From: Verrucomicrobiota bacterium
GTDB taxonomy: Bacteria; Verrucomicrobiota; Verrucomicrobiia; Limisphaerales; CANJSG01
Assembly: GCA_038209745.1 (NCBI GenBank)
Contig: JBBQXJ010000023.1
Coordinates: 1 to 56,532 of the forward strand
Length of the DNA stretch: 56,532 nt
Direction of reading: 5' to 3'
In this document: positions 1,147-43,182 of the stretch, piece after piece
Layout: each line of letters begins with the position of its first letter
Numbering within the stretch: position 1 is the first letter of the stretch
Program-made: the position numbers and the translations under genes
Notes under the pieces: generated by a model
Databases searched by the model: none
Seen by the model: the letters and a program-made list of their open reading frames with translations, nothing else
Told to the model about the DNA's origin: nothing

Positions 1147-2124
1147 GTGGCCTATTACCACTGCATTTCCCGGGTCGTGGACCGCCGGTTTATTTTGGGC
1201 GATGCGGAACGGGAACAGTTCGCGGCCTGGATGCGGCACTACGAAGCCTTCTGCGGGGTGCGCGTCGTCACCTACTGCATCATGTCCAATCACTTCCACA
1301 TTCTCGTGGAAGTGCCGCAACGGCCGGAAACCTTGCCGTCGGACGAAGTGCTGCTGGGCCAGTTGGAGCTCGGCTACAGCAAGGGTTTCGCCCAGACCAT
1401 CCGGCAACGATTGGAGATGTTGCCGGAGGACGAGCGGCAGGCGTTGCGGGAAAGCTTCTTCGCCCGGATGTGGGACCTGAGCGCGTTCATGAAGCTCTTG
1501 AAGCAGCGGTTCACCCAGTGGTTCAACAAGCAGCAGGGCCGCAAGGGCACGTTGTGGGAGGAGCGCTTCAAGAGCGTGTTGGTGGACGGAGCCGGGGAGG
1601 CCTTGGCCACGATGGCCGCTTATATCGATCTGAATCCCGTCAGGGCCGGCTTGGTGGACGATCCTAAGGACTACCGCTGGTGTGGCTACGCGGAGGCGGT
1701 GGCCGGGAAACGTGCCGCCCGGCAGGGCCTGCGCACCGTGATCATCGCCGCGCAACGGGCCGAAGCCACCTTGAACGAGTCTTTGACCCAATACCGCGTC
1801 TGGCTCTTCGGCCAAGGCGACCCGGAAGGGGTGAACCAACCGGGAGAGAGGCCGACGGTCCGGCGCGGCATCGATCCGGAACGCGTGAAGTCCGTGGTCG
1901 GCGACCATGGCAAGCTGGCGGTAACGGACTATCTCCGCTGCCGAGTCCGTTACTTCGTCGATGGCGCGGTTCTCGGCACCCGCGCCTACGTGGACGACGT
2001 GTTTGAGGAGAACCGGGAACGGTTCGGTCCAAACCGCCGGGACGGAGCCCGCAAACTGAAGCATCTCCAGTCCAACGCCCTCTTCAGCCTGCGGGATCTT
2101 CGGGTGCAGGCCGTAGTGGGATAG
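1147..2124 (+). CDS. REP-associated tyrosine transposase (RAYT; Y1/HUH, IS200-like)
   Basis: YYHCISRVVDRRF N-terminus, HUH motif YCIMSNHFHILV, GTLWEERFKS, catalytic-Tyr motif YIDLNPVRAGLV..P.DYRW; start uncertain. Confidence 0.9.
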   Translation: MAYYHCISRVVDRRFILGDAEREQFAAWMRHYEAFCGVRVVTYCIMSNHFHILVEVPQRPETLPSDEVLLGQLELGYSKGFAQTIRQRLEMLPEDERQALRESFFARMWDLSAFMKLLKQRFTQWFNKQQGRKGTLWEERFKSVLVDGAGEALATMAAYIDLNPVRAGLVDDPKDYRWCGYAEAVAGKRAARQGLRTVIIAAQRAEATLNESLTQYRVWLFGQGDPEGVNQPGERPTVRRGIDPERVKSVVGDHGKLAVTDYLRCRVRYFVDGAVLGTRAYVDDVFEENRERFGPNRRDGARKLKHLQSNALFSLRDLRVQAVVG

Positions 2125-25032: not shown

Positions 25033-25041
25033 ACCAATTCC

Positions 25042-26352
25042 ATGACCGCCTGTTCCACCACGCCCTTCTCGGCCAATGGCCGCCACTACCATCCCCCGGC
25101 CCGGCCCGTTGTCGTCGTGTGTCTCGACGGCAGCGCGGATGAATACCTCGATGCCGCCATGGCGCGGGGACTGATGCCGCACCTCCAGTCGATGTCCGTC
25201 AACGGCTGGCGTGGATTTGCCCGTGCGGCGATGCCCACGTTTACCAATGTCAACAACACCTCCATCGTCACCGGCGTGCCGCCCGCCGTGCACGGCATCA
25301 GCGGCAATTACTTCCTCGATCCCTTGACCGGCCAGGAAGTGATGATGAACTCCGCCTCGTTCCTGCGGGCGCCGACGCTCTTTCCCGCCGCGGCGAAGGC
25401 GGGCCGGAAGGTCGCCGTGGTCACCGCCAAGGAGAAGCTGCGCGACATCTTCGCCTCGGGCCTCGTAGGCCGGGCTTCCAGCCCGGCAAGTCCGTCCGAC
25501 GCGGAAGGGGCAGGCAGGATGCCGGCCCTGCCCGGCGGCATCGCCTTCTCCTCCGAAAAGGCGAGGGACGCCCGGCTGGAGACCCACGGCATCGAGGGCG
25601 TCGAGGCGCTCGTCGGCCCGACGCCCCAGATCTATTCCGGCGACGCCTCGATCTATGTGTTGAAGTCCGGAGTCCGGATTCTCGAAGCGGGCCGGGCCGA
25701 CTTCCTCTACTTGAGCACGACCGACTACATCCAGCACGGCTACGCGCCGGACGAGGCCGGAGCGCTGGAGTTCTACGCCGGAATCGACCAACAGATCGGC
25801 CGCTTGCTCGAACTTGGAGCGGTCATCGGAGTCACGGCCGATCACGGCATGAACGCGAAGCAGACGGCGGACGGAGCGCCGAACGTCGTCTATCTGGAGT
25901 CGGAACTGGTCCAGGCGTTCGAGGCCGAGTTCCGCGTCATCCTGCCGATCACGGATCCGTATGTGGCCCACCACGGCGCGCTCGGCTCGTTTGCATGGGT
26001 GCATCTGCCGGAAGGGATGGATTCGTTCAAGATCGCCCGCTGGCTCTGCGAACGCGCCGGCATCACCGAGGTGCTCGGCCGCGCCGCCGCCGCCCGCAAG
26101 CTGCAGCTGCCGGCCGATCGCATCGGCGATCTGGCCGTGTTGGCGGGGCGCGACACCGTTCTGGGCCGCACGCCGGAACACCACGACTTGTCGGCGCTGC
26201 ACGGCGGGCTGCGGTCCCACGGCGGGCGCTACGAGGAGATGGTGCCGTTCCTCCTCAGCCAACCGTTGAAGCCCGCTTTCAGGGCCCGCGCGATGGCCGA
26301 CGTCCGCAACTTCGACATCTTCGACTTCATCTGCAACGGAATCGCCCTGTGA
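25042..26352 (+). CDS. phnA: Phosphonoacetate hydrolase (carries an in-frame REP insertion)
   Basis: VVVCLDG, MPTFTNVNNTSIVTG, HGISGNYF, YLSTTDYIQH, TADHGMNAK, PITDPYVAHHGALGS, LRSHGG, RNFDIF. Confidence 0.93.
   Translation: MTACSTTPFSANGRHYHPPARPVVVVCLDGSADEYLDAAMARGLMPHLQSMSVNGWRGFARAAMPTFTNVNNTSIVTGVPPAVHGISGNYFLDPLTGQEVMMNSASFLRAPTLFPAAAKAGRKVAVVTAKEKLRDIFASGLVGRASSPASPSDAEGAGRMPALPGGIAFSSEKARDARLETHGIEGVEALVGPTPQIYSGDASIYVLKSGVRILEAGRADFLYLSTTDYIQHGYAPDEAGALEFYAGIDQQIGRLLELGAVIGVTADHGMNAKQTADGAPNVVYLESELVQAFEAEFRVILPITDPYVAHHGALGSFAWVHLPEGMDSFKIARWLCERAGITEVLGRAAAARKLQLPADRIGDLAVLAGRDTVLGRTPEHHDLSALHGGLRSHGGRYEEMVPFLLSQPLKPAFRARAMADVRNFDIFDFICNGIAL
25465..25531. repeat. REP doublet in frame within phnA
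   Basis: GTAGGCCGGGCTTCCAGCCCGGC (25465-25487) plus inverted degenerate copy GCAGGCAGGATGCCGGCCCTGC (25510-25531); encodes VGRASSPA...AGRMPAL. Confidence 0.8.
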
Positions 26353-31815: not shown

Positions 31816-32217
31816 GAGCGGCTTTGCGTCGGATGCGGGCGGCGAGTTTCTGCATCGATCCGGTTGGACGGGAGAACCGCTGCTGACGGCGGCTTTCCGT
31901 CTTGTCCGGCAGCGGATTTGAGCAAGGTCCGGCAGAGCGGTTTTCTGGGAATGAATCCCGCCGGCGGGGATGGGTCAATGGCTGGATCGATTCGACCGGC
32001 TATCACGAGGGTCTTCCACCCAACAGGCGTGGAAATCTTCCGCCGTCCCATAGCCTCCGCGTCCCCGCAACCTTGGGTTGGATCAGGACGGGCGGTTGGC
32101 CCTCGTGCGCCTTGGGTTTGATTTTCTACTGGCTGGAAAGGGGTTCCAGCCCGATTGCACGGATGCTCTGAAATCCTCTTGGGCTGGTTCGTCGTCTTGG
32201 GGCAGGCTCTCTGGCTC

Positions 32218-35200
32218 ATGAGCGACGTGAAGCTCTCCGATCAATTTTTCCAGAAGACGGCCGGTTGGGAGGCCGTGAAGCAGGCGCGTAGTCTCGTGGA
32301 GCGCGGCAACGTGTTGTCGTCGAACTGGACGCCGCCGCTGCTGAAGGGCGTGGTGCAGGAGGGCGGCGCCAGCTATCGCGCGGGTCTGGTCATCAAGGGC
32401 GAGACCGATGTGGAGAACATCTGTTCCTGCCGGCAATCGCGGGAGTGGGGGACGATCTGCGCGCATTCGGTCGGGGTGGGGATCCATCATTTGAAGAAGC
32501 TGGCCGAGCCTCCGGCCAACGCGGCGGAGCAGGGGGGCAGGGTGGGTGGTGGGCAGGGGAAACCGGGAGCGAACTCGGTGCCGGTGAATCCGGCGCCCAG
32601 GCTGAAGCGCGGAGACGGGGGCGAGCCGGCGGAGCTGTTCTTCATTCTTCCTCCGAACCTGGGTGCGGCGCTGGAACGTGGGCGGGTGATGCTCTGTGTG
32701 GAGGCGAAGTGGGCGCGCGGCCGGGGACCGATCAACGGACTGCCATTGGAGAAGGTGTGGGATTTTTCCGACGAGGATCTGGCGCCTTTGGAGGTGCTGG
32801 AAGGGATCACCCGCGGCGAGCCACCGGGGATGATCCAGCTTACAGCGGCGGAGCTGGCCAAGGTATTGGATCGGCTGAAGAAGCATCCGCGCGTCGCCAT
32901 CGGACGGAACACCGAGCTGGAAGTGAGCGAGGAGCCGTATCGATTGAAGGTGAAGGCGACCTTGGAAGCGGACGGCCAGATCGTCGTGGGCCGGGCATCC
33001 CGCCCCGCCCAAGTGGCGTTTGTCGGGGCTTCATCGGGCGTGTCCGAAGGAAACTTACCGGGCAGGGATGCCCGGCCCACGGGGGCGTCTTGGATCTTCG
33101 CGGCGAATCGCTTTCAACCGATGGCCCTGCCAAACACGGTGGCGGACATCCTGGCGAAGCCGGTCGTGGTGTCGCGCGGGCGCGTGCCGCTGTTCCTCAT
33201 ACAAGAGTGGTCGGCGCTGGCGGCGGGCTGCGAGGTGGAGGCGAATTTCGAGCCGCAGGATTTCCAGTTCGATCCGCAACCTCCGAAGTTTCTGCTGCAC
33301 TTGGCCGGCGGTTTGGCGCAGCTCTCGGCGCAGCTGCAATGCGCCTACGGTCCCCGCATCATGACCCTCGGCGTGAGCGATCCGAACGAGTCGCTCTGGG
33401 TGGCGGATCCGGACAATGTGAAGCGGTATTCCACCCGGGATCTGGCGGCGGAACAGGCGGCGCTGACCCGGCTCACGAAATATGGTTTCCGTCCCGGCAA
33501 GGCGGCGGGCACCTACGAACTGGCGGGGCAGAACCAGGTGCTGACGTTCTTGGCGCGCGAACATCCGAAACTCGAGAAGGAGTGGAAGGTCACGCTGGAG
33601 GAGCGGCTGGAATTCAGCGCGAACAAAAACCTGGAGCGCATCGAACCGAAGTTCCAGATCACGCCGTCGGGCGTGCAGTGGTTCGATCTGGACATGTCGT
33701 TCGGGACCAAGGCGGGCGAGACGTTTTCGCAGGCGGACATCCAGCGGCTGCTGCTGGGCGGGCAGAGCCACACGCGGCTGAAGAACGGCAAGTTCGCGCT
33801 CATCGACACCGGTGCGGTGGAGGAATTGCAGGAGGTGCTGCTGGACTGCAATCCGCAGCAGACGGGCGCGGGCTACCGGATGAACGCCACGCAGGCGGGC
33901 TTCCTCGAGTCGACGCTGTCCGAGAACGGGTGGCAGGCCTCGGCCCCGACGGCCTGGAAGGAACGGGCGAAGACCCTGGCCGGCGAGGCGGTGCTGGCGT
34001 GTCCACCGCTCGGGAAGCTGGAAGACGTGCTGCGGCCCTATCAGAAGCACGGGGTCGGATGGATGCACTTTCTGCGAAACAACGGATTCGGCGGCATTCT
34101 TGCGGACGAGATGGGACTGGGGAAGACGCTGCAGGCATTGGCGTTCTTGAGTGCCGTAGGCCGGGCATCCCTGCCCGGAAAGTCGGTTTCGGAGAATCGG
34201 AGCGTGCTGAAATCCGAGAACGCCCACTTGCCGGGCAGGGATGCGCGGCCTGCGGGGGGGCGGCCCCACTTGGTGGTTTGCCCGACGTCGCTGGTGTTCA
34301 ACTGGGCGGCGGAGGCGGCGAAGTTCACCCCGGAACTGAAGGTCGTCACGCTGCAAGGTCCGGATCGACACAAACGTTTCGCGGAGATCGCGGACGCCGA
34401 CCTGGTGGTGACGAGCTATGCGCTGGTCCGGCGCGACGCGGAGCGCTACAGGGCCATCGAGTTCGACACGGTCGTCTTGGACGAAGCGCAGCACATCAAG
34501 AACCGGCAGACCCAGAACGCACAGGCGGTGAAGGCGATCCGGTCGCAGCATCGGCTGGTGCTGACCGGCACGCCGTTGGAGAACTCGGTCCTGGATCTGT
34601 GGAGCATCTTCGACTTCCTCATGCCGGGCTATCTCGGGACGGCGCAGGATTTCCGTGACCGCTACGAGCAACCGATCACCAAGACCCGGGATGCCGACGC
34701 GCAGGCGCGGTTGGCGCGGCGGCTGAAGCCGTTTTTGCTGCGCCGTCTCAAACGGGAAGTGGCAAAGGAACTGCCGGACAAGCTGGAGCAGATCTCGTTC
34801 TGCGACCTCTCCGACGAGCAGGCGCAGGTCTACAAGCAGGTGCTCGATGCGACGCGGCGCGAGGTCGTCATGGCCGTCGATCAAAACGGATTGGCGAAGA
34901 GCCGGATGGTCGTCCTCAGCGCGCTGCTGCGACTGAGGCAAATCTGTTGCGATCTTCGGTTGTTGAAACTGGAGGAACCCGTAGGGCCGACATCCATGCC
35001 CGGCGAGTCCGTGTCGGAGAATCGGAACGTTCCGAAATTGGAGGACGCCCAATTGCCGGGCAGGGATGCCCGGCCTGCAACGCCGGCGCCTTCCGGCAAG
35101 CTGGAGATGTTCTCGGAACTTTTGGAGGAGGTCGTCGACGGTGAACACCGCGTGCTCGTCTTCAGCCAGTTCGTCGGAATGCTCACCCTGTTGCGCGAGC

Positions 35201-35595
35201 GGTTGGAGGCGGACGGGATCGAGTATTGTTACCTCGACGGCTCGACCAAGGATCGCGGCGAGGCCGTCAGGGGATTCCAAACCGGGAAAGCACCGGTCTT
35301 CCTCATTTCGCTCAAAGCGGGCGGCGTCGGCTTGAACCTCACGGGGGCGGACACGGTCATCCATTTCGACCCTTGGTGGAACCCGGCAGTGGAAGATCAG
35401 GCCACGGACCGGGCGCACCGCATCGGACAGACTCGGGTCGTCACCAGCTACAAGTTGATCACCCGGGGAACGATCGAGGAGAAGATCCTCCAGTTGCAGA
35501 AGAAGAAGCGGGACATCATCGCCGCGACTTTGACCGGCGAGGAAGCTCTGACCGGCAGCTTGAATTGGGCGGAAATCCAGGACCTTTTGGGCTGA
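32218..35595 (+). CDS. SWIM Zn-finger SNF2-family helicase with three in-frame REP-derived insertions
   Basis: CSC..ICAH SWIM; LADEMGLGKT, DEAQ, LTGTPLEN, VFSQF, SLKAGG.GLNL, WWNPA.EDQA.DRAHRIGQ. Confidence 0.92.
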   Translation: MSDVKLSDQFFQKTAGWEAVKQARSLVERGNVLSSNWTPPLLKGVVQEGGASYRAGLVIKGETDVENICSCRQSREWGTICAHSVGVGIHHLKKLAEPPANAAEQGGRVGGGQGKPGANSVPVNPAPRLKRGDGGEPAELFFILPPNLGAALERGRVMLCVEAKWARGRGPINGLPLEKVWDFSDEDLAPLEVLEGITRGEPPGMIQLTAAELAKVLDRLKKHPRVAIGRNTELEVSEEPYRLKVKATLEADGQIVVGRASRPAQVAFVGASSGVSEGNLPGRDARPTGASWIFAANRFQPMALPNTVADILAKPVVVSRGRVPLFLIQEWSALAAGCEVEANFEPQDFQFDPQPPKFLLHLAGGLAQLSAQLQCAYGPRIMTLGVSDPNESLWVADPDNVKRYSTRDLAAEQAALTRLTKYGFRPGKAAGTYELAGQNQVLTFLAREHPKLEKEWKVTLEERLEFSANKNLERIEPKFQITPSGVQWFDLDMSFGTKAGETFSQADIQRLLLGGQSHTRLKNGKFALIDTGAVEELQEVLLDCNPQQTGAGYRMNATQAGFLESTLSENGWQASAPTAWKERAKTLAGEAVLACPPLGKLEDVLRPYQKHGVGWMHFLRNNGFGGILADEMGLGKTLQALAFLSAVGRASLPGKSVSENRSVLKSENAHLPGRDARPAGGRPHLVVCPTSLVFNWAAEAAKFTPELKVVTLQGPDRHKRFAEIADADLVVTSYALVRRDAERYRAIEFDTVVLDEAQHIKNRQTQNAQAVKAIRSQHRLVLTGTPLENSVLDLWSIFDFLMPGYLGTAQDFRDRYEQPITKTRDADAQARLARRLKPFLLRRLKREVAKELPDKLEQISFCDLSDEQAQVYKQVLDATRREVVMAVDQNGLAKSRMVVLSALLRLRQICCDLRLLKLEEPVGPTSMPGESVSENRNVPKLEDAQLPGRDARPATPAPSGKLEMFSELLEEVVDGEHRVLVFSQFVGMLTLLRERLEADGIEYCYLDGSTKDRGEAVRGFQTGKAPVFLISLKAGGVGLNLTGADTVIHFDPWWNPAVEDQATDRAHRIGQTRVVTSYKLITRGTIEEKILQLQKKKRDIIAATLTGEEALTGSLNWAEIQDLLG
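32986..33080. repeat. REP doublet 1, in frame in the SNF2 gene
   Basis: GTGGGCCGGGCATCCCGCCCCGC ... CCGGGCAGGGATGCCCGGCCCAC; encodes VGRASRPA...LPGRDARPT. Confidence 0.88.
34156..34253. repeat. REP doublet 2, in frame in the SNF2 gene
   Basis: GTAGGCCGGGCATCCCTGCCCGG + 52-bp spacer + CCGGGCAGGGATGCGCGGCCTGC; encodes VGRASLPG...LPGRDARPA. Confidence 0.92.
34981..35078. repeat. REP doublet 3, in frame in the SNF2 gene
   Basis: GTAGGGCCGACATCCATGCCCGG + 52-bp spacer homologous to doublet 2 + CCGGGCAGGGATGCCCGGCCTGC. Confidence 0.9.
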
Positions 35596-39829: not shown

Positions 39830-42800
39830 TCAGTCCTCCGAGAACAGATATTCGAGATCCGTCTGCGAGAGGCTCTTCGCGAAGCCTTCTTCGCCGAGGA
39901 CGTCGGCGATGGTCTGGGACTTGCGCTGCTGGAGGTCCCAGATCTTTTCCTCGACGGTGCCGGGCGCGATGAGGCGGTAGGCGTTGACCGTGCGGGTCTG
40001 GCCGATGCGGTGGGAACGGTCGATGGCCTGGGCTTCGACGGCGGGGTTCCACCACGGATCGTAGAGCACCACGTAGCTGGCGGTGGTCAGGTTGAGGCCG
40101 GTTCCGGCCGCGCGGAGGGAGAGCAGGAATATCGCGCCGTCTTTCTCGTCCTGGAAGGCGTTGACCACTTCCTGCCGGTCCTTGGTTTCGCCGGTGAGGA
40201 TGTAGGTTTTGATGGCGCGTTTGCCGCACTCGGTCTCCAGCAGCTTCAACATCTGCACGAACTGGGAGAAGACGAGGACCTTCTGGTTGTCGGCGAGCAG
40301 GGGCTCGAGCAGTTCGAAGAGCGTCTCGGTCTTGCCGGAAGCGGAGTCGTTGCCAACAAGCGTGGGGTGGCAGCAGATCTGGCGCAGGCGGGTGAGCGCG
40401 GCGAGGACGTGCATCTTGCTCTTCGCGAGGCCCTTTTCCTGGACGGTCTGCATGACCTGTTCGCGGCTGCGACGGAGTTCCGCGAGGTAGAGCTTGCGCT
40501 GGGCTTCGCCGAGATCGCAGTCGCGGCGTTCCTCGATGCGGTCGGGAAGGTCCTTGGCGACCTGCTTCTTGAGCCGGCGCAGCATGATCGGGCGCAGCTT
40601 GGCGGCGAGGCGGCGACGGGCGATGCGTTGGGTGGATTCGGCCTCTTCGCCGGTGCCCTTGGGATCGTAGGTCTGGGCGAAATGGTCCTGGTCGCCGAGG
40701 TACCCGGGTTGGACAAAGTCGGCGATGGACCAGAGGTCGGTCAGGCGGTTTTCCAACGGGGTGCCGGTCAGGGCGAGGCGTTGGTCGCCCTTGAGCTGTT
40801 TGACGCTGAGGGTGACCTGGGCGCCGGGGTTTTTGATGAACTGGGCCTCGTCGAGGATGATGGCGCGGAAGTTGAACTTCTGGAGCCATTCGAGGTCCCG
40901 GCGGAGAAGCGCGTAGTTCGTGACGATGATGTCGTTCTCCGGGATCTGCTTGCGGAGGTTGTGGCGCGCGGCGCCGCTCTGGAGCACAAGCACCTTGAGA
41001 TGGGGAGCGAACTTCTCGGCCTCACGGCGCCAATTGTGGAGCACGGAGGCGGGGCAGATGACGAGGGCGGGGCGGTGGGCCTTCTTGCTCTCCTGATGGA
41101 GCCAAGCGAGCCAGATCAGGGTCTGGAGCGTTTTCCCGAGGCCCATGTCGTCGGCGAGGATGCCGCCCAGCTTGTGGCGGGAGAGATGGGCCAGGAAGTT
41201 GAAGCCGTCGCGCTGATACGGGCGGAGTTCGGCGTTGATGCTCGGGGGAACGCCGGTGTCGGGCACCCCCTTGAAGTTGGCCAACGAATTGCGGAGGGCC
41301 TTTGACTGGGCCGAGTCGCCGAATTTGGAGAGCGCGGTGTCGTCGAGGTGGGCTGCCTGTTCCATGCCGACCTTCTGGGCGTTGGGCATCAGACCCTCGA
41401 TTCCAAGGTCGGCGAAGGTCTCGTGCGCGGCCTGGACGGCGCCGGCGTCGAGCTCGACCCATCCGGCATCGGGCAGCTTGACGAAGCGGCCGGTGGCGGT
41501 GGCGAGGCGGTGGAGATCGGAGGGGGAGAGGCGCATCCCTTCGGCTTCCCATTCGGCGGAGACGGAGAACCAGTCGATGCCGCTGCCCTTGACGACGAGC
41601 ATGGGTTTGACCTGGCGCGGGCTGAGGAAGAGGCGGCGGAAGGATTCGTTGCCGAGGTATTCGGCCTCGGCGGGGCGTTGCGGCCAAGCCACCGCGAGGA
41701 CGTTGAGGAAGTTCTCGTTGGCGTCGCCGACCCACAGGCCCGGTTCGGGGGTGAACCAGTCCAGCTTGCGCAGCCAATGGGTGGCGGCTTCGAGGCGGGA
41801 GTCGTCGAGGATCTCGGGCTTGCCTTGCTTGTGATGGCCAGCGGAGTCGCGCTGCCATTCGTGGCCGGTCCAGTGCCAGAGGGTCTGATCGGTCTCGCTG
41901 CGGGCGAGGAGGCGGAGGCGGACGGTGTCGTCGCTCAGTTCGAACATGAACTGGGGGACCGCCGAGTGCGTGTTGCACAGCTGGCCCCAGTCGACGCCGT
42001 TCTTCGGTTGGGTCTGTCGCAGGCGCGTCAGCACGCGGTGGCTGAGGCGGCTGACGGGGAGCGAGCCCTTTTCCAGCCACTTGCCGAGGAAGCCCGACGG
42101 GGGCGCCTTGCGCAGCAGATGGAAGGCGCCGCCGACGAGGGCGAGCGTGGGCTTGCCGGAGAAGAACACCGCCTGGTCCAGATCGTGCGTGCCGGAGGCG
42201 GTGACGACGTGGTGGGTGAAGGCGAGACCGTCGGCATTCTTGTCGAGGTGCGGCTTGAGCTCCGCGACCTGGCCGTGGAAGTGGTGGAAGTTCGGCGTGT
42301 TGACGATCTCCAGGCGGTTCATGTCGCCCCAACGCACGAGCCATTGGAGGAGGTTCGTGCCGGAGAGGCGGAATTCCTCGGTGGCGCCGGCGCCGGCCGC
42401 GAGATCGCCGGCGAGCCATTGGATGAATTCCCAGTCGGCGGGCGCGAAGAGCTCCTGCTCATGGGCGGCACGGGTGGTGAGCTCGACAAGTTCGGCGGCG
42501 GTCTTCTGCTTCTCGCCGGTGCGGGGCCGGAAGAGGAAGAACTGCACGGCCATCTCGTGGAGACCGGGGGTCTTCTCGTCCTTCACCGGGCTGCAGACGA
42601 TGCGCAGCGTGGCGCGGGGCGAGTCGAGGTGCGACGGGGCGGGCGGGAACATCCAGGTCTCCAGCGCGACGACGAGCTCCTGTTCCTTCTCGGCCTGTTC
42701 GACCTCGGCGAAGCGGTCGAAATTGGCGTGGGACAGCAGCTCGGTGGGCAGCGACCGGTTCGAGCGCATGAAGAGCAGCGCGAGTTCCTCGAGTCGCGCC

Positions 42801-43099
42801 TTGCCCAGGACCGCGGTCATCTTGGGCCACCATTCCGAGGCGACGAAGTCCTTCCGCGACAGGTTCAGCTTTTCGAAATAGTCCTCCAGCAGCAGCCACG
42901 CGCGCTGCGAGTCGGCGCAGGCGCCGAACATGTTCAGCACCTCCGTGCGCTCGGCCACGGCGGTCTTGGACTCGGCCAACTCCTTCCGGAGATCGGCGAG
43001 CGCGCCATACGTTTTCTGCAGGACGGTGTGATGACCGTCATAACGGGCCGCAGCAGCGGACCGGGTGACAATTCCAGTTTTTCGGGACGTTCTCGCCAT
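39830..43099 (-). CDS. SNF2-family helicase (second paralog)
   Basis: LADDMGLGKT, DEAQ, LTGTPLEN, VFSQF, GLNLT, WWNPA.EAQA.DR.HRIGQ; start uncertain (43099 or 43138). Confidence 0.9.
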   Translation of the reverse strand: MARTSRKTGIVTRSAAAARYDGHHTVLQKTYGALADLRKELAESKTAVAERTEVLNMFGACADSQRAWLLLEDYFEKLNLSRKDFVASEWWPKMTAVLGKARLEELALLFMRSNRSLPTELLSHANFDRFAEVEQAEKEQELVVALETWMFPPAPSHLDSPRATLRIVCSPVKDEKTPGLHEMAVQFFLFRPRTGEKQKTAAELVELTTRAAHEQELFAPADWEFIQWLAGDLAAGAGATEEFRLSGTNLLQWLVRWGDMNRLEIVNTPNFHHFHGQVAELKPHLDKNADGLAFTHHVVTASGTHDLDQAVFFSGKPTLALVGGAFHLLRKAPPSGFLGKWLEKGSLPVSRLSHRVLTRLRQTQPKNGVDWGQLCNTHSAVPQFMFELSDDTVRLRLLARSETDQTLWHWTGHEWQRDSAGHHKQGKPEILDDSRLEAATHWLRKLDWFTPEPGLWVGDANENFLNVLAVAWPQRPAEAEYLGNESFRRLFLSPRQVKPMLVVKGSGIDWFSVSAEWEAEGMRLSPSDLHRLATATGRFVKLPDAGWVELDAGAVQAAHETFADLGIEGLMPNAQKVGMEQAAHLDDTALSKFGDSAQSKALRNSLANFKGVPDTGVPPSINAELRPYQRDGFNFLAHLSRHKLGGILADDMGLGKTLQTLIWLAWLHQESKKAHRPALVICPASVLHNWRREAEKFAPHLKVLVLQSGAARHNLRKQIPENDIIVTNYALLRRDLEWLQKFNFRAIILDEAQFIKNPGAQVTLSVKQLKGDQRLALTGTPLENRLTDLWSIADFVQPGYLGDQDHFAQTYDPKGTGEEAESTQRIARRRLAAKLRPIMLRRLKKQVAKDLPDRIEERRDCDLGEAQRKLYLAELRRSREQVMQTVQEKGLAKSKMHVLAALTRLRQICCHPTLVGNDSASGKTETLFELLEPLLADNQKVLVFSQFVQMLKLLETECGKRAIKTYILTGETKDRQEVVNAFQDEKDGAIFLLSLRAAGTGLNLTTASYVVLYDPWWNPAVEAQAIDRSHRIGQTRTVNAYRLIAPGTVEEKIWDLQQRKSQTIADVLGEEGFAKSLSQTDLEYLFSED

Positions 43100-43182
43100 A
43101 CCAACAAACAGCTTTAAGTCAGGATCCTGAATATCCACCCGTTTTGCCCAATGGGGTCAACGGTTAATTGCCTTCTCATTGT

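What the first reader, a model, noticed from the sequence alone, without database searches (positions are those of the whole stretch)
32986..35078. Three REP doublets (REPIN-like) inserted in frame in one SNF2 helicase, each adding a ~32-aa peptide
Seen: three 95-98 bp elements, each a GT[AG]G-headed palindrome (consensus GTAGGCCGGGCATCCCTGCCCGG), a spacer and an inverted copy. All start on a codon boundary (Val) and give VG[RP][AT]S..P....LPGRDARP. Elements 2 and 3 have homologous 52-bp spacers (KSVSENRSVLKSENAHL vs ESVSENRNVPKLEDAQL), so the whole doublet appears to have been copied as a unit. The paralog at 39830-43099 is an internal control: it has short loops at the same two places (between helicase motifs I and Ia, and between LRQICC and SGK). 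Known: GTAG-headed REPs/REPINs are linked to RAYT transposases and are normally intergenic; coding insertions are known mainly from Rickettsia palindromic elements. Inference: this REP family colonises protein surface loops in a frame that avoids reading GTAG as a TAG stop, adds new peptide sequence, and has a hotspot in this gene.
Basis: partly seen in the sequence, partly recalled or inferred. Interest (0 to 1): 0.85.

Follow-up and report, generated by a model that had tools for sequence, protein, structure and literature searches.

The report
REP hairpin repeats translated inside genes
Three copies of a small palindromic mobile DNA repeat sit in frame inside one helicase gene of an uncultured Verrucomicrobium and add floppy loops of about 32 residues; this habit of such repeats was already described in 2013 for another Verrucomicrobium, so it is a clean new example and not a new phenomenon.

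Summary
Window 32986-33080, 34156-34253 and 34981-35078 are three inverted dimers of a 28-nt GTAG-headed hairpin repeat. All three start on a codon boundary of an intact 1146-aa SNF2/SWIM helicase ORF.

The family is restricted to one genus: 7 to 156 arms in each of its 7 genomes, and 0 to 2 in each of 24 other genera of the order. It is used in two reading frames, on both strands, and also between genes, so it is DNA-level repeat sequence and not a protein motif. In this genome 15 of 18 dimers lie inside genes with Pfam domains, including MutS, UvrA, PolA and NadE.

Congeners and other genera lack the inserts at the same three sites. The closest solved homologue (1z63) has about 7 residues where inserts 2 and 3 lie, and AlphaFold2 models all three as low-confidence coil. 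Independent metagenome contigs carry them.

No cognate RAYT transposase was found.

Intragenic GTAG REP dimers in Verrucomicrobia, favouring DNA-repair and helicase genes, were catalogued by Di Nocera et al. 2013 (PMC3733652). Verdict: a new member of a known kind.

Two points go beyond that paper. Fill and empty states across congeners do not fit the flank phylogeny, and some resident copies look exchanged in place.

The parts
32155..35595 (+). Host gene: SNF2-family helicase with an N-terminal SWIM-like region (P0001, 1146 aa). The ORF is intact.
   Evidence: Pfam finds SNF2-rel_dom at 629-935, Helicase_C at 982-1091 and SNF2_assoc at 375-592. Orthologues occur in 31 of 31 related genomes.
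32986..33080 (+). REP dimer e1 (95 nt), covering residues 278-309. The left arm 32986-33013 is degenerate. The right arm is 33053-33080.
   Evidence: The same site is filled in G004 and G001 and empty in G005, G003 and G006. AF2 pLDDT is below 50 for residues 293-309.
34156..34253 (+). REP dimer e2 (98 nt), covering residues 668-700. It lies between helicase motif I and the strand of motif Ia. Arms are 34156-34183 and 34226-34253.
   Evidence: z = -7.8. The site is empty in G001, G003, G006, G002 and in all other-genus orthologues. The 1z63 alignment breaks at 668-702. pLDDT is below 50 for 673-700.
34981..35078 (+). REP dimer e3 (98 nt), covering residues 943-975 in the linker between the two RecA-like lobes. 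Arms are 34981-35008 and 35051-35078.
   Evidence: The site is empty in G005, G003, G001 and G002. The 1z63 alignment breaks at 939-978. pLDDT is below 50 for 928-982.
25465..25492 (+). A single arm of the same family, in frame (phase 0) inside a type I phosphodiesterase ORF (25033-26349).
   Evidence: nhmmer hit at E = 0.05. Pfam PF01663 spans residues 26-384 of that ORF.
39830..43138 (-). Paralogous SNF2 helicase (P0002) without inserts. It serves as an internal control.
   Evidence: 39% identity, with gaps opposite inserts 2 and 3.

Best explanation
**What the elements are (shown).** The three segments are copies of a genus-specific family of GTAG-tagged REPs. Each unit has a GTAG head, an 8-bp stem with a 4-nt loop, and a short tail. 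The units are arranged as head-out inverted dimers (REPIN-like) around spacers of about 40 nt.

**How they got there (inferred from filled and empty alleles).** They entered the coding sequence of an SNF2 helicase as DNA, at three loops that vary in length among orthologues.

**Why the gene survives.** The inserted length is 3n: the GTAG-to-CTAC span plus one flanking base. The head also lies in a stop-free phase. Together these keep the ORF open.

**Consequence (translation not tested).** The repeat is presumably transcribed and translated as 32-33 extra residues rich in Gly, Arg, Pro, Ala and Ser. These form disordered surface loops tolerated by the enzyme.

**What selection does (inferred).** Selection acts only as a filter, removing copies with the wrong phase, the wrong length or a harmful position. 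The peptide itself has no role.

**How copies spread (inferred, enzyme not found).** The most likely route is a Y1 HUH transposase of the RAYT type acting on single-stranded hairpins. Resident copies may then act as landing pads or gene-conversion partners for later copies, which would explain the clustering in this gene.
For: **REP anatomy.** In 93 arms from G000 and G004, columns 1-4 (GTAG) and the stem columns are each at least 90% conserved. Stem cells pair in 91.6% of cases, against 21-41% when the partner column is slid. The loop-closing pair switches between A-T and G-C with few mixed states: 18 double-change cells against 6.4 +/- 2.0 in shuffles, with 0 of 500 shuffles reaching that number.

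**Distribution.** Arm counts in the 7 genomes of the genus are 34, 63, 7, 23, 156, 42 and 59. Of 24 other genera in the order, 21 have 0 and 3 have 1-2. The reversed control gives 0 in all 31 genomes.

**DNA-level element, not a protein motif.** It is used in two phases and on both strands. In a sample from G004, about 29 of 41 elements lie outside coding frames.

**Genome-wide habit.** 15 of 18 dimers and 7 of 10 single arms lie inside ORFs that carry Pfam domains in the same frame.

**Length filter.** The GTAG-to-CTAC length is 2 mod 3 in 14 of 18 dimers. My binomial estimate for this is about 1.5e-4. A C precedes the head in 17 of 18 and a G follows the tail in 16 of 18.

**Empty sites.** Each of the three SNF2 sites is unfilled in 3-4 congeners, and no other-genus orthologue in the alignment carries this repeat there.

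**Structure.** Solved homologue 1z63 has about 7 residues where the query has 35 and 40. AF2 (mean pLDDT 70.2, 17-sequence alignment) models the inserts as coil with pLDDT below 50 between confident secondary-structure elements.

**Not an assembly artefact.**
- A 6999-nt contig of run X5 spans 32900-35200 with no gaps.
- An X2 contig spans 33118-35174 with no gaps.
- A contig of X18, a soil metagenome from another study, spans e2 with no gaps.

**Precedent.** Di Nocera et al. 2013 (passages and Additional file 3 read).
Against: **No mobilising enzyme identified.**
- None of the 4 Y1_Tnp loci of G000, nor 18 such loci fetched from G001, G004, G005 and G006, has an arm within about 1.5 kb.
- G003 has 23 arms but only one weak Y1_Tnp match.
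- The RAYT-like gene on this contig (window 1147-2124) was found in only 2 of 7 genomes of the genus.

**Filled and empty alleles are not related by a clean insertion.** About 30 nt of the empty allele is missing from the filled one. The insertion mechanics therefore cannot be read off.

**Most spacers are unrelated.** Median identity is 48%. This is not what a single replicating REPIN master copy would give.

**Transcription and translation are untested.** No RNA run holds the stretch.

**The structural model is weak.** pTM is 0.37 and the alignment is shallow. Low pLDDT over the inserts partly reflects their absence from most aligned sequences.
Confidence: 0.85

Rival explanations
1. The copies did not arrive by transposition. 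They were spread and homogenised by recombination, either gene conversion or template switching at hairpins between resident copies. No dedicated transposase is involved at present.
For: No cognate RAYT was found.

G004 site 1 and G001 site 1 share flanks that are 94-98% identical, yet their spacers are only 66% identical. In contrast, sites 1 and 2 within G004 are 80% identical.

Within G000, e2 and e3 are the closest pair of all dimers.

The loop-closing pair differs in a concerted way between genomes.
Against: Gene conversion cannot create a copy at a naive site. Yet copies occur in at least 20 unrelated genes and in many intergenic places. Copy number also varies 20-fold among congeners. 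The genomes are MAGs, 78-93% complete, so a transposase gene flanked by repeats could simply be unassembled.
Confidence: 0.1
2. The segments are ancestral, functionally selected loops of this helicase, that is, a protein-level motif. The DNA palindromy would be incidental.
For: The UvrA copy is retained at the same site in 4 of 5 genomes compared and is degenerate in the fifth. In e1, residues 288-290 are modelled as a strand, at a place where a conserved host strand is missing.
Against: The same DNA is read in two different frames in different genes and also occurs between genes. Orthologues in other genera and 3-4 congeners lack the segments. The stem positions covary at the DNA level.
Confidence: 0.03
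3. The inserts are present in the DNA but are not part of the mature protein. They would be removed at the RNA level or bypassed in translation.
For: None was obtained. The long hairpins (about -32 to -38 kcal/mol as DNA) would be strong structures in mRNA.
Against: Copies in coding sequence keep an open frame and show a 3n length bias. Neither would be needed if the segment were removed. No intron or intein signature was seen (Pfam).
Confidence: 0.02

Closest known systems
Intragenic GTAG-tagged REPs and REP dimers (Di Nocera, De Gregorio and Rocco 2013, BMC Genomics 14:522, PMC3733652), above all in Opitutus terrae
   Same: - GTAG head with a short G+C-rich stem-loop.
- Inverted dimers with variable spacers.
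- In-frame location inside known genes, encoding about 20-30 residues, sometimes twice per ORF.
- A Verrucomicrobial host.
- The same kinds of host genes: UvrA, DNA polymerase I, HrpA and other helicases, HI0933-family protein, Ser/Thr kinase, ABC transporter.
- Sub-families with alternative complementary stem residues.
- The TAG of the head serving as the stop of a neighbouring ORF.
- A Thioalkalivibrio UvrA dimer in their Additional file 3 that encodes a peptide beginning like the one here.
   Different: - A different repeat sequence in a different order (a Limisphaerales/Pedosphaera-like, uncultured genus).
- Three dimers in one gene.
- In this genome the family is almost confined to coding sequence (22 of 28 elements).
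- Congener comparison gives filled and empty alleles, which the 2013 survey of single genomes did not.

I did not see their Figure 1 consensus sequences, because figures are not held. I therefore could not test whether this family matches one of GTAG-1 to GTAG-24.
REPINs and their RAYT transposases (Bertels and Rainey 2011, PMC3116915; abstract read)
   Same: REP doublets in inverted orientation which, together with the spacer, fold into a long hairpin. The family is restricted to a lineage and appears to be inherited vertically. There is some evidence that the doublet plus spacer is copied as a unit (e2, e3, the MutS copy and the copies in congeners).
   Different: REPINs are described as lying in extragenic space and next to a cognate RAYT. 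Here the copies studied are intragenic, most spacers are unrelated, and no RAYT flanked by the arms was found.
Rickettsia palindromic elements (RPE; Ogata et al. 2000, as cited in PMC3184786 and PMC10969869; passages read)
   Same: Palindromic repeats inserted in frame in many unrelated housekeeping genes. They add peptide segments that appear compatible with the fold and function of the host protein.
   Different: RPEs are about 105-150 bp and unrelated in sequence, in an obligate intracellular alphaproteobacterium. According to Di Nocera et al., the short intragenic R. conorii repeats belong to the CGTC-tagged superfamily, not the GTAG one.

Membership tests
GTAG-tagged REP superfamily (Di Nocera et al. 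2013) | Conserved terminal GTAG tetranucleotide at one end of the unit | tested here: met
   Columns 1-4 (G, T, A, G) are each at least 90% conserved in 93 arms.
GTAG-tagged REP superfamily (Di Nocera et al. 2013) | Short (20-40 bp) unit with a 6-9 bp stem and a small loop | tested here: met
   The stem is 8 bp and the loop 4 nt. 91.6% of stem cells pair, and there is one covarying pair. A single arm folds at -9 kcal/mol, z = -3.3.
GTAG-tagged REP superfamily (Di Nocera et al. 2013) | Dispersed multi-copy family, often as inverted dimers | tested here: met
   34 arms on 22 contigs of G000, forming 18 dimers. Congeners have 7-156 arms.
GTAG-tagged REP superfamily (Di Nocera et al. 2013) | Mostly intergenic location | tested here: inconclusive
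   In the G004 sample about 29 of 41 elements lie outside coding frames. This rests on a codon model only, and the sample was biased towards near-perfect arms. In G000 only 6 of 28 lie outside genes or are unresolved.
REPIN (Bertels and Rainey 2011) | Two REPs in inverted orientation that fold, with the spacer, into one long hairpin | tested here: met
   I2, I4; MFE structures pair arm with arm; z from -4.5 to -7.8.
REPIN (Bertels and Rainey 2011) | The doublet including its spacer is the replicative unit, so spacers are conserved among copies | tested here: inconclusive
   e2-e3 spacers are 81% identical, MutS-e2 67%, and the SNF2 copies of congeners 56-80%. The median over all 153 pairs is 48%.
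REPIN (Bertels and Rainey 2011) | A cognate RAYT gene flanked by the same REPs (REPtron) | tested here: not met
   No arm lies near any of 22 Y1_Tnp loci examined in 5 genomes. The RAYT-like gene at window 1147-2124 scores 61.6 bits against NF047646, whose cut-off is 80. It has no arms nearby and was found in 2 of 7 congeners. Because these are MAGs, absence is not shown.
REPIN (Bertels and Rainey 2011) | Extragenic location | tested here: not met
   The three copies of the finding, and 15 of 18 dimers in G000, are inside ORFs.
MITE | Terminal inverted repeats plus a target-site duplication | tested here: inconclusive
   Inverted ends are present. No direct repeat flanks the copies. There is only a conserved C before the head (17 of 18) and a G after the tail (16 of 18), which extends the palindrome by one pair.
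Rickettsia palindromic elements | Sequence membership in RPE families 1-10 of Rickettsia | not tested
   No RPE sequence was compared. The host phylum and the element length differ. Only the behaviour is shared.
SNF2 family helicase (host gene) | SNF2-related ATPase domain plus the helicase C-terminal domain | tested here: met
   PF00176 scores 257.7 bits and PF00271 scores 80.2 bits. The best solved relative is 1z63 at E = 2.9e-94.

The most novel reading that the evidence does not exclude
Once a loop of a gene has been colonised, it becomes a fixed landing pad at which REP-type occupants are exchanged in place. The exchange would happen by re-insertion or by short-patch conversion between copies. 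The same codon positions would then carry different or freshly replaced palindromic cassettes in sister species, and fill and empty states would move among lineages independently of the gene's own phylogeny. In effect this would be a cassette-exchange process that makes a few loops of DNA-repair and helicase proteins hypervariable.

The evidence that leaves this open is as follows.
- **States that do not fit the flank tree.** The states at sites 1/2/3 (F = filled, E = empty) are FFF in G004, FEE in G001, EFE in G005, EEF in G006 and EEE in G003. They cannot be fitted to the flank tree ((G004,G001),G003,(G005,G006)). The empty alleles are nonetheless homologous to one another.
- **Fast-diverging spacer.** The site-1 spacers of G004 and G001 are 66% identical inside flanks that are 94-98% identical.
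- **Several occupants at one site.** One PolA site carries at least three different hairpin-type occupants plus a collapsed remnant among five congeners.
- **Other genera.** Unrelated palindromic inserts occupy the same two SNF2 loops in two other genera.
Probability: 0.3. Interest if true: 0.55.

Novelty: new member of a known kind. Interest (0 to 1): 0.33.

Why it matters
The case shows, with filled and empty alleles from seven congeners, that selfish hairpin repeats can live inside working housekeeping genes for long periods. It also shows that in one genome the coding copies have outlasted the intergenic ones. For annotation, such segments should be recognised as repeat-derived loops and not as lineage-specific protein features. 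For evolution, the genus offers a natural series for asking how intragenic REPs are gained, replaced and lost: copy number varies 20-fold, and the same sites are filled, empty or differently filled. It also allows a test of the 2013 suggestion that their preference for repair enzymes and helicases is more than tolerance of long linkers.

Tried and rejected
**RNA evidence.** The look-up of sequencing runs listed no RNA holder, so expression and read-through could not be examined.

**Empty alleles in the population.** Read laying found no contig that cleanly skips an element. The few 'skip' joints have short sides (21-32 nt) and fit other repeat copies or other organisms.

**RAYT search.**
- PF01797 in the own genome and in 30 relatives.
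- Arm scans around 22 Y1 loci.
- NCBIfam naming.
- Distribution of the contig's own RAYT-like gene.

None of these linked an enzyme to the family.

**Earlier notes of this scan.** A look-up by place gave only an unrelated note, and a look-up by sequence found nothing.

**Closer DNA alignment, not done.** The boundaries therefore rest alone.

**e1 as two single arms around a host strand: rejected.** I considered that e1 in G000 consists of two single arms flanking a retained host strand. The e1 spacer is 66-70% identical to the e2 and e3 spacers, so it is repeat-derived.

**Assembly breaks hiding intergenic copies: rejected.** I considered that intergenic copies in G000 are hidden by assembly breaks. 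Arms are not concentrated at contig ends, although MAG assembly could still under-represent them.

**Rows dropped from the census.** These are nhmmer arm hits with E above 0.07 and no partner (C5 2537, C21 530, C37 29227, C85 12699, C86 12454), the overlapping hits inside C27, and C70 6186, which was seen only.
Full report
**1. The observation**

The window is a whole contig (C23) of a 4.58-Mb, 140-contig, 63% G+C genome.

ORF 32155-35595(+) encodes a 1146-aa protein. It has SNF2-related, Helicase_C and bacterial SNF2-associated domains.

The three elements lie at 32986-33080, 34156-34253 and 34981-35078.
- Each is an inverted pair of about 28-nt arms around a spacer of about 40 nt.
- e2 and e3 are 84% identical over 100 nt.
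- As single-stranded DNA the elements fold arm against arm, with z = -4.5, -7.8 and -5.0.

The paralogue at 39830-43138(-) aligns at 39% identity, with gaps opposite e2 and e3.

**2. The repeat family**

*The unit.* An alignment of 93 arms (40 from this genome, 53 from congener G004) shows three parts:
- a conserved GTAG head;
- an 8-bp stem with a 4-nt loop;
- a short conserved tail.

91.6% of stem cells pair, against 21-41% when the partner column is slid. The loop-closing pair is A-T in most G000 arms (26 of 40) and G-C in most G004 arms (34 of 53), and mixed states are rare. There are 18 double-change cells against 6.4 +/- 2.0 in shuffles, with 0 of 500 shuffles reaching that. Related copies can inflate this measure, and it could equally reflect two sub-families.

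*Distribution.* The 23-mer pattern, at 2 or fewer mismatches, occurs as follows:

| Genomes | Arms |
|---|---|
| G000 to G006 (the genus) | 34, 63, 7, 23, 156, 42, 59 |
| 21 of 24 other genera of the order | 0 |
| 3 of 24 other genera of the order | 1-2 |
| Reversed pattern, all 31 genomes | 0 |

Titles of related records place the organism in Verrucomicrobiota, in the Limisphaerales/Pedosphaera group.

**3. Where the copies sit in this genome**

nhmmer with an arm profile gave 51 hits at E <= 1. I grouped them into 18 dimers and 10 single arms. The dropped rows are named under Tried and rejected.

A codon-usage model trained on 681 long ORFs, spanning-frame analysis and Pfam place 15 of 18 dimers inside ORFs with domain hits in the same frame. 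The hosts are:
- MutS;
- UvrA;
- DNA polymerase I;
- NAD synthase;
- two class-III aminotransferases;
- an acyltransferase/AMP-binding protein;
- an HI0933-family flavoprotein;
- an FtsX permease;
- an Oxidored_FMN enzyme;
- an ABC exporter;
- a carboxyltransferase;
- the SNF2 helicase, three times.

The other three dimers differ:
- C7 lies in phase 2, and its TAG is the stop codon of the adjacent minus-strand gene.
- C115 lies between two genes, at the start of a HAD-type hydrolase.
- C5 is unresolved and lies near a contig end.

Seven of 10 single arms are also internal, in HrpA, HrpB, a Mur ligase, a Ser/Thr kinase, a ferredoxin/DmsC fusion, an aminotransferase and the window's phosphodiesterase.

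*Phase and length.*
- Ten internal dimers are in phase 0 and five in phase 1. None is in phase 2, as must be true for a copy that is read through.
- Copies occur on both strands relative to the contig.
- The GTAG-to-CTAC length is 2 mod 3 in 14 of 18 dimers.
- A C precedes the head in 17 of 18 and a G follows the tail in 16 of 18.
- The unit that fits the frame is therefore this span plus one base.

*Comparison with G004.* I fetched 40 stretches around arms listed. The sample is biased towards near-perfect arms.
- It gave 41 elements, of which 12 are dimers.
- About 8 are clearly inside coding frames.
- 4 are at gene ends or ambiguous.
- About 29 are outside coding frames.

This classification uses the codon model only, without Pfam. 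The family therefore behaves as an ordinary, largely intergenic REP where it is abundant. In G000 the coding copies predominate.

**4. Insertions, not ancestral loops**

I aligned 20 orthologues: 7 genomes of the genus and 13 other genera. The states in the genus are:

| Site | Filled | Empty |
|---|---|---|
| 1 | G000, G004, G001 | G005, G003, G006 |
| 2 | G000, G004, G005 | G001, G003, G006, G002 |
| 3 | G000, G004, G006 | G005, G003, G001, G002 |

No other-genus orthologue carries the repeat.

At the DNA level, the filled allele lacks about 30 nt that the empty allele has. The event was therefore not a simple insertion into the present empty sequence.

The solved homologue 1z63 aligns in three blocks that break at residues 668-702 and 939-978. 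About 7 residues of the chain lie opposite each break.

AlphaFold2 on a 17-sequence alignment gave mean pLDDT 70.2 and pTM 0.37. It models residues 293-309, 673-700 and 928-982 as coil with pLDDT below 50, between confident helices and strands. This low confidence partly reflects the gaps opposite the inserts in the alignment.

Independent metagenome contigs carry the inserts without gaps:
- X5 spans the whole 32900-35200.
- X2 spans 33118-35174.
- X18, a soil metagenome from another study, spans e2 and shows a 6-nt in-frame deletion at the right edge of e3.

**5. Hotspot and turnover**

*Clustering in one gene.* Under length-weighted random placement of 16-18 dimers on 3332 proxy genes, the chance that any gene receives three is about 5e-4.

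*Flank phylogeny.* Flanking codons give a stable grouping in all six segments tested:
- (G004, G001) are 94-99% identical.
- (G005, G006) are 89-94% identical.
- G003 lies between these two pairs.
- (G000, G002) are about 84% identical.

*Fill states.* At sites 1/2/3 (F = filled, E = empty) the states are FFF in G004, FEE in G001, EFE in G005, EEF in G006 and EEE in G003. They do not fit that grouping. The empty alleles are nonetheless homologous to one another.

*Spacers.* The site-1 spacers of G004 and G001 are only 66% identical. Sites 1 and 2 within G004 are 80% identical, and e2 and e3 within G000 are 80-81% identical.

*Other genes.*
- The orthologous PolA site is filled by this family in G000 and G004. 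It holds a collapsed remnant in G003 and other hairpin-forming inserts in G005 and in G001/G006.
- The MutS site carries a perfect arm in G000 and a degenerate remnant in four congeners.
- The UvrA copy is shared by G000, G004, G005 and G001 and is degenerate in G003.
- In two other genera, unrelated palindromic inserts occupy SNF2 loops 2 or 3, with z = -4.2 and -5.6.

I read these data as recurrent use of a few permissive sites, with some in-place exchange of occupants. The present data do not separate recombination between lineages from re-insertion.

**6. The enzyme**

PF01797 matches four loci in G000.
- None is flanked by the arms.
- The locus on C137 is flanked by a different set of hairpin repeats.
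- The 325-aa gene at window 1147-2124 is RAYT-like: NF047646 at 61.6 bits, below the 80-bit cut-off. It was found in only G000 and G006 of the genus.

Eighteen Y1 loci of four congeners also lack nearby arms.

Mobilisation by a RAYT is therefore an inference from the repeat's anatomy and from the literature, not a result of this work.

**7. What is known**

- **Di Nocera et al. 2013** (PMC3733652). I read passages and part 1 of Additional file 3. They describe intragenic GTAG and CGTC REPs in many species, with the most in the Verrucomicrobium Opitutus terrae (70 rows). More than half are dimers encoding 20-30 residues, sometimes twice per ORF. The hosts are notably uvrA, polA, helicases, dnaE2 and ligase, and also HI0933, Ser/Thr kinase and ABC proteins. 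The paper also reports sub-families with complementary stem changes, TAG stops supplied by the head, and different REPs at about the same recB site in two Xanthomonas species.
- **REPINs and RAYTs.** Bertels and Rainey 2011 (abstract read).
- **RPEs and other in-frame repeats.** Passages in PMC3184786 and PMC10969869.
- **Search for prior reports.** Searches for in-frame palindromic repeats in Verrucomicrobia, and for REPIN/RAYT with coding, returned nothing on this genus.
- **This scan's own notes.** They hold 34 findings of the same kind on other genomes, among them another Verrucomicrobium.

**8. Verdict**

The observation and the core reading are right. The phenomenon is genome-wide here and well documented elsewhere, so this is a new member of a known kind.

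The incongruent fill states and the apparent in-place turnover are the only parts that go beyond the literature I saw, and they remain unproven.

Noticed in passing
window 1147-2124 (+): A 325-aa Y1 HUH transposase-like gene. PF01797 matches residues 3-58. NCBIfam 'REP-associated tyrosine transposase' scores 61.6 bits, below its 80-bit cut-off. No arms of the studied family and no clear terminal inverted repeats lie around it. It was found in only 2 of 7 genomes of the genus, but also in 4 other genera.
   Followed up: partly
G000 contig C137, about 900-2100 (locus L021): A 127-154-aa Y1_Tnp gene is flanked on both sides by clusters of three other perfect hairpins with 7-8-bp stems. This resembles a REPtron of a second, unrelated repeat family in the same genome.
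   Followed up: no
L135-L139 and L032 (PolA orthologues), at the codon equivalent to G000 C48 21583-21668: The same PolA site carries different contents in different congeners:
- this REP dimer in G000 and G004;
- a 23-nt collapsed remnant in G003;
- a different double hairpin in G005;
- an insert of about 150 nt with several other hairpins in G001 and G006.
   Followed up: partly
L008 (SNF2 loop 2) and L055 (SNF2 loop 3): Orthologues from two other genera carry unrelated, strongly palindromic inserts in the same two helicase loops (DNA fold z = -4.2 and -5.6).
   Followed up: no
G000 C7 70944-71042 and C115 3077-3178: In C7 the TAG of the GTAG head is the stop codon of the adjacent minus-strand gene. 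In C115 the dimer lies directly after a stop codon and before a HAD-type (GmhB-like) ORF, and an ATG inside the right arm could serve as that gene's start.
   Followed up: partly
L004, L005, L006 (SNF2 site 2, empty alleles): The empty alleles of G001, G003 and G006 hold a homologous segment of about 30 nt that is strikingly A+T-rich for genomes of about 63% G+C. In G001 it contains a short internal direct repeat. Its origin is unclear.
   Followed up: no
window 32986-33080 (residues 278-309 of P0001): In G000 the conserved host segment that follows site 1 in all other orthologues (about 8 residues, a strand) is missing. AF2 models residues 288-290 of the repeat-encoded peptide as a strand, so the insert may have taken over a structural role.
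   Followed up: no
L165, L172, L175, L181 (G004): Several intergenic arms in G004 are embedded in a longer conserved composite repeat: the same sequence follows the arm, along with further hairpin-like units. This suggests BIME-like clusters.
   Followed up: no
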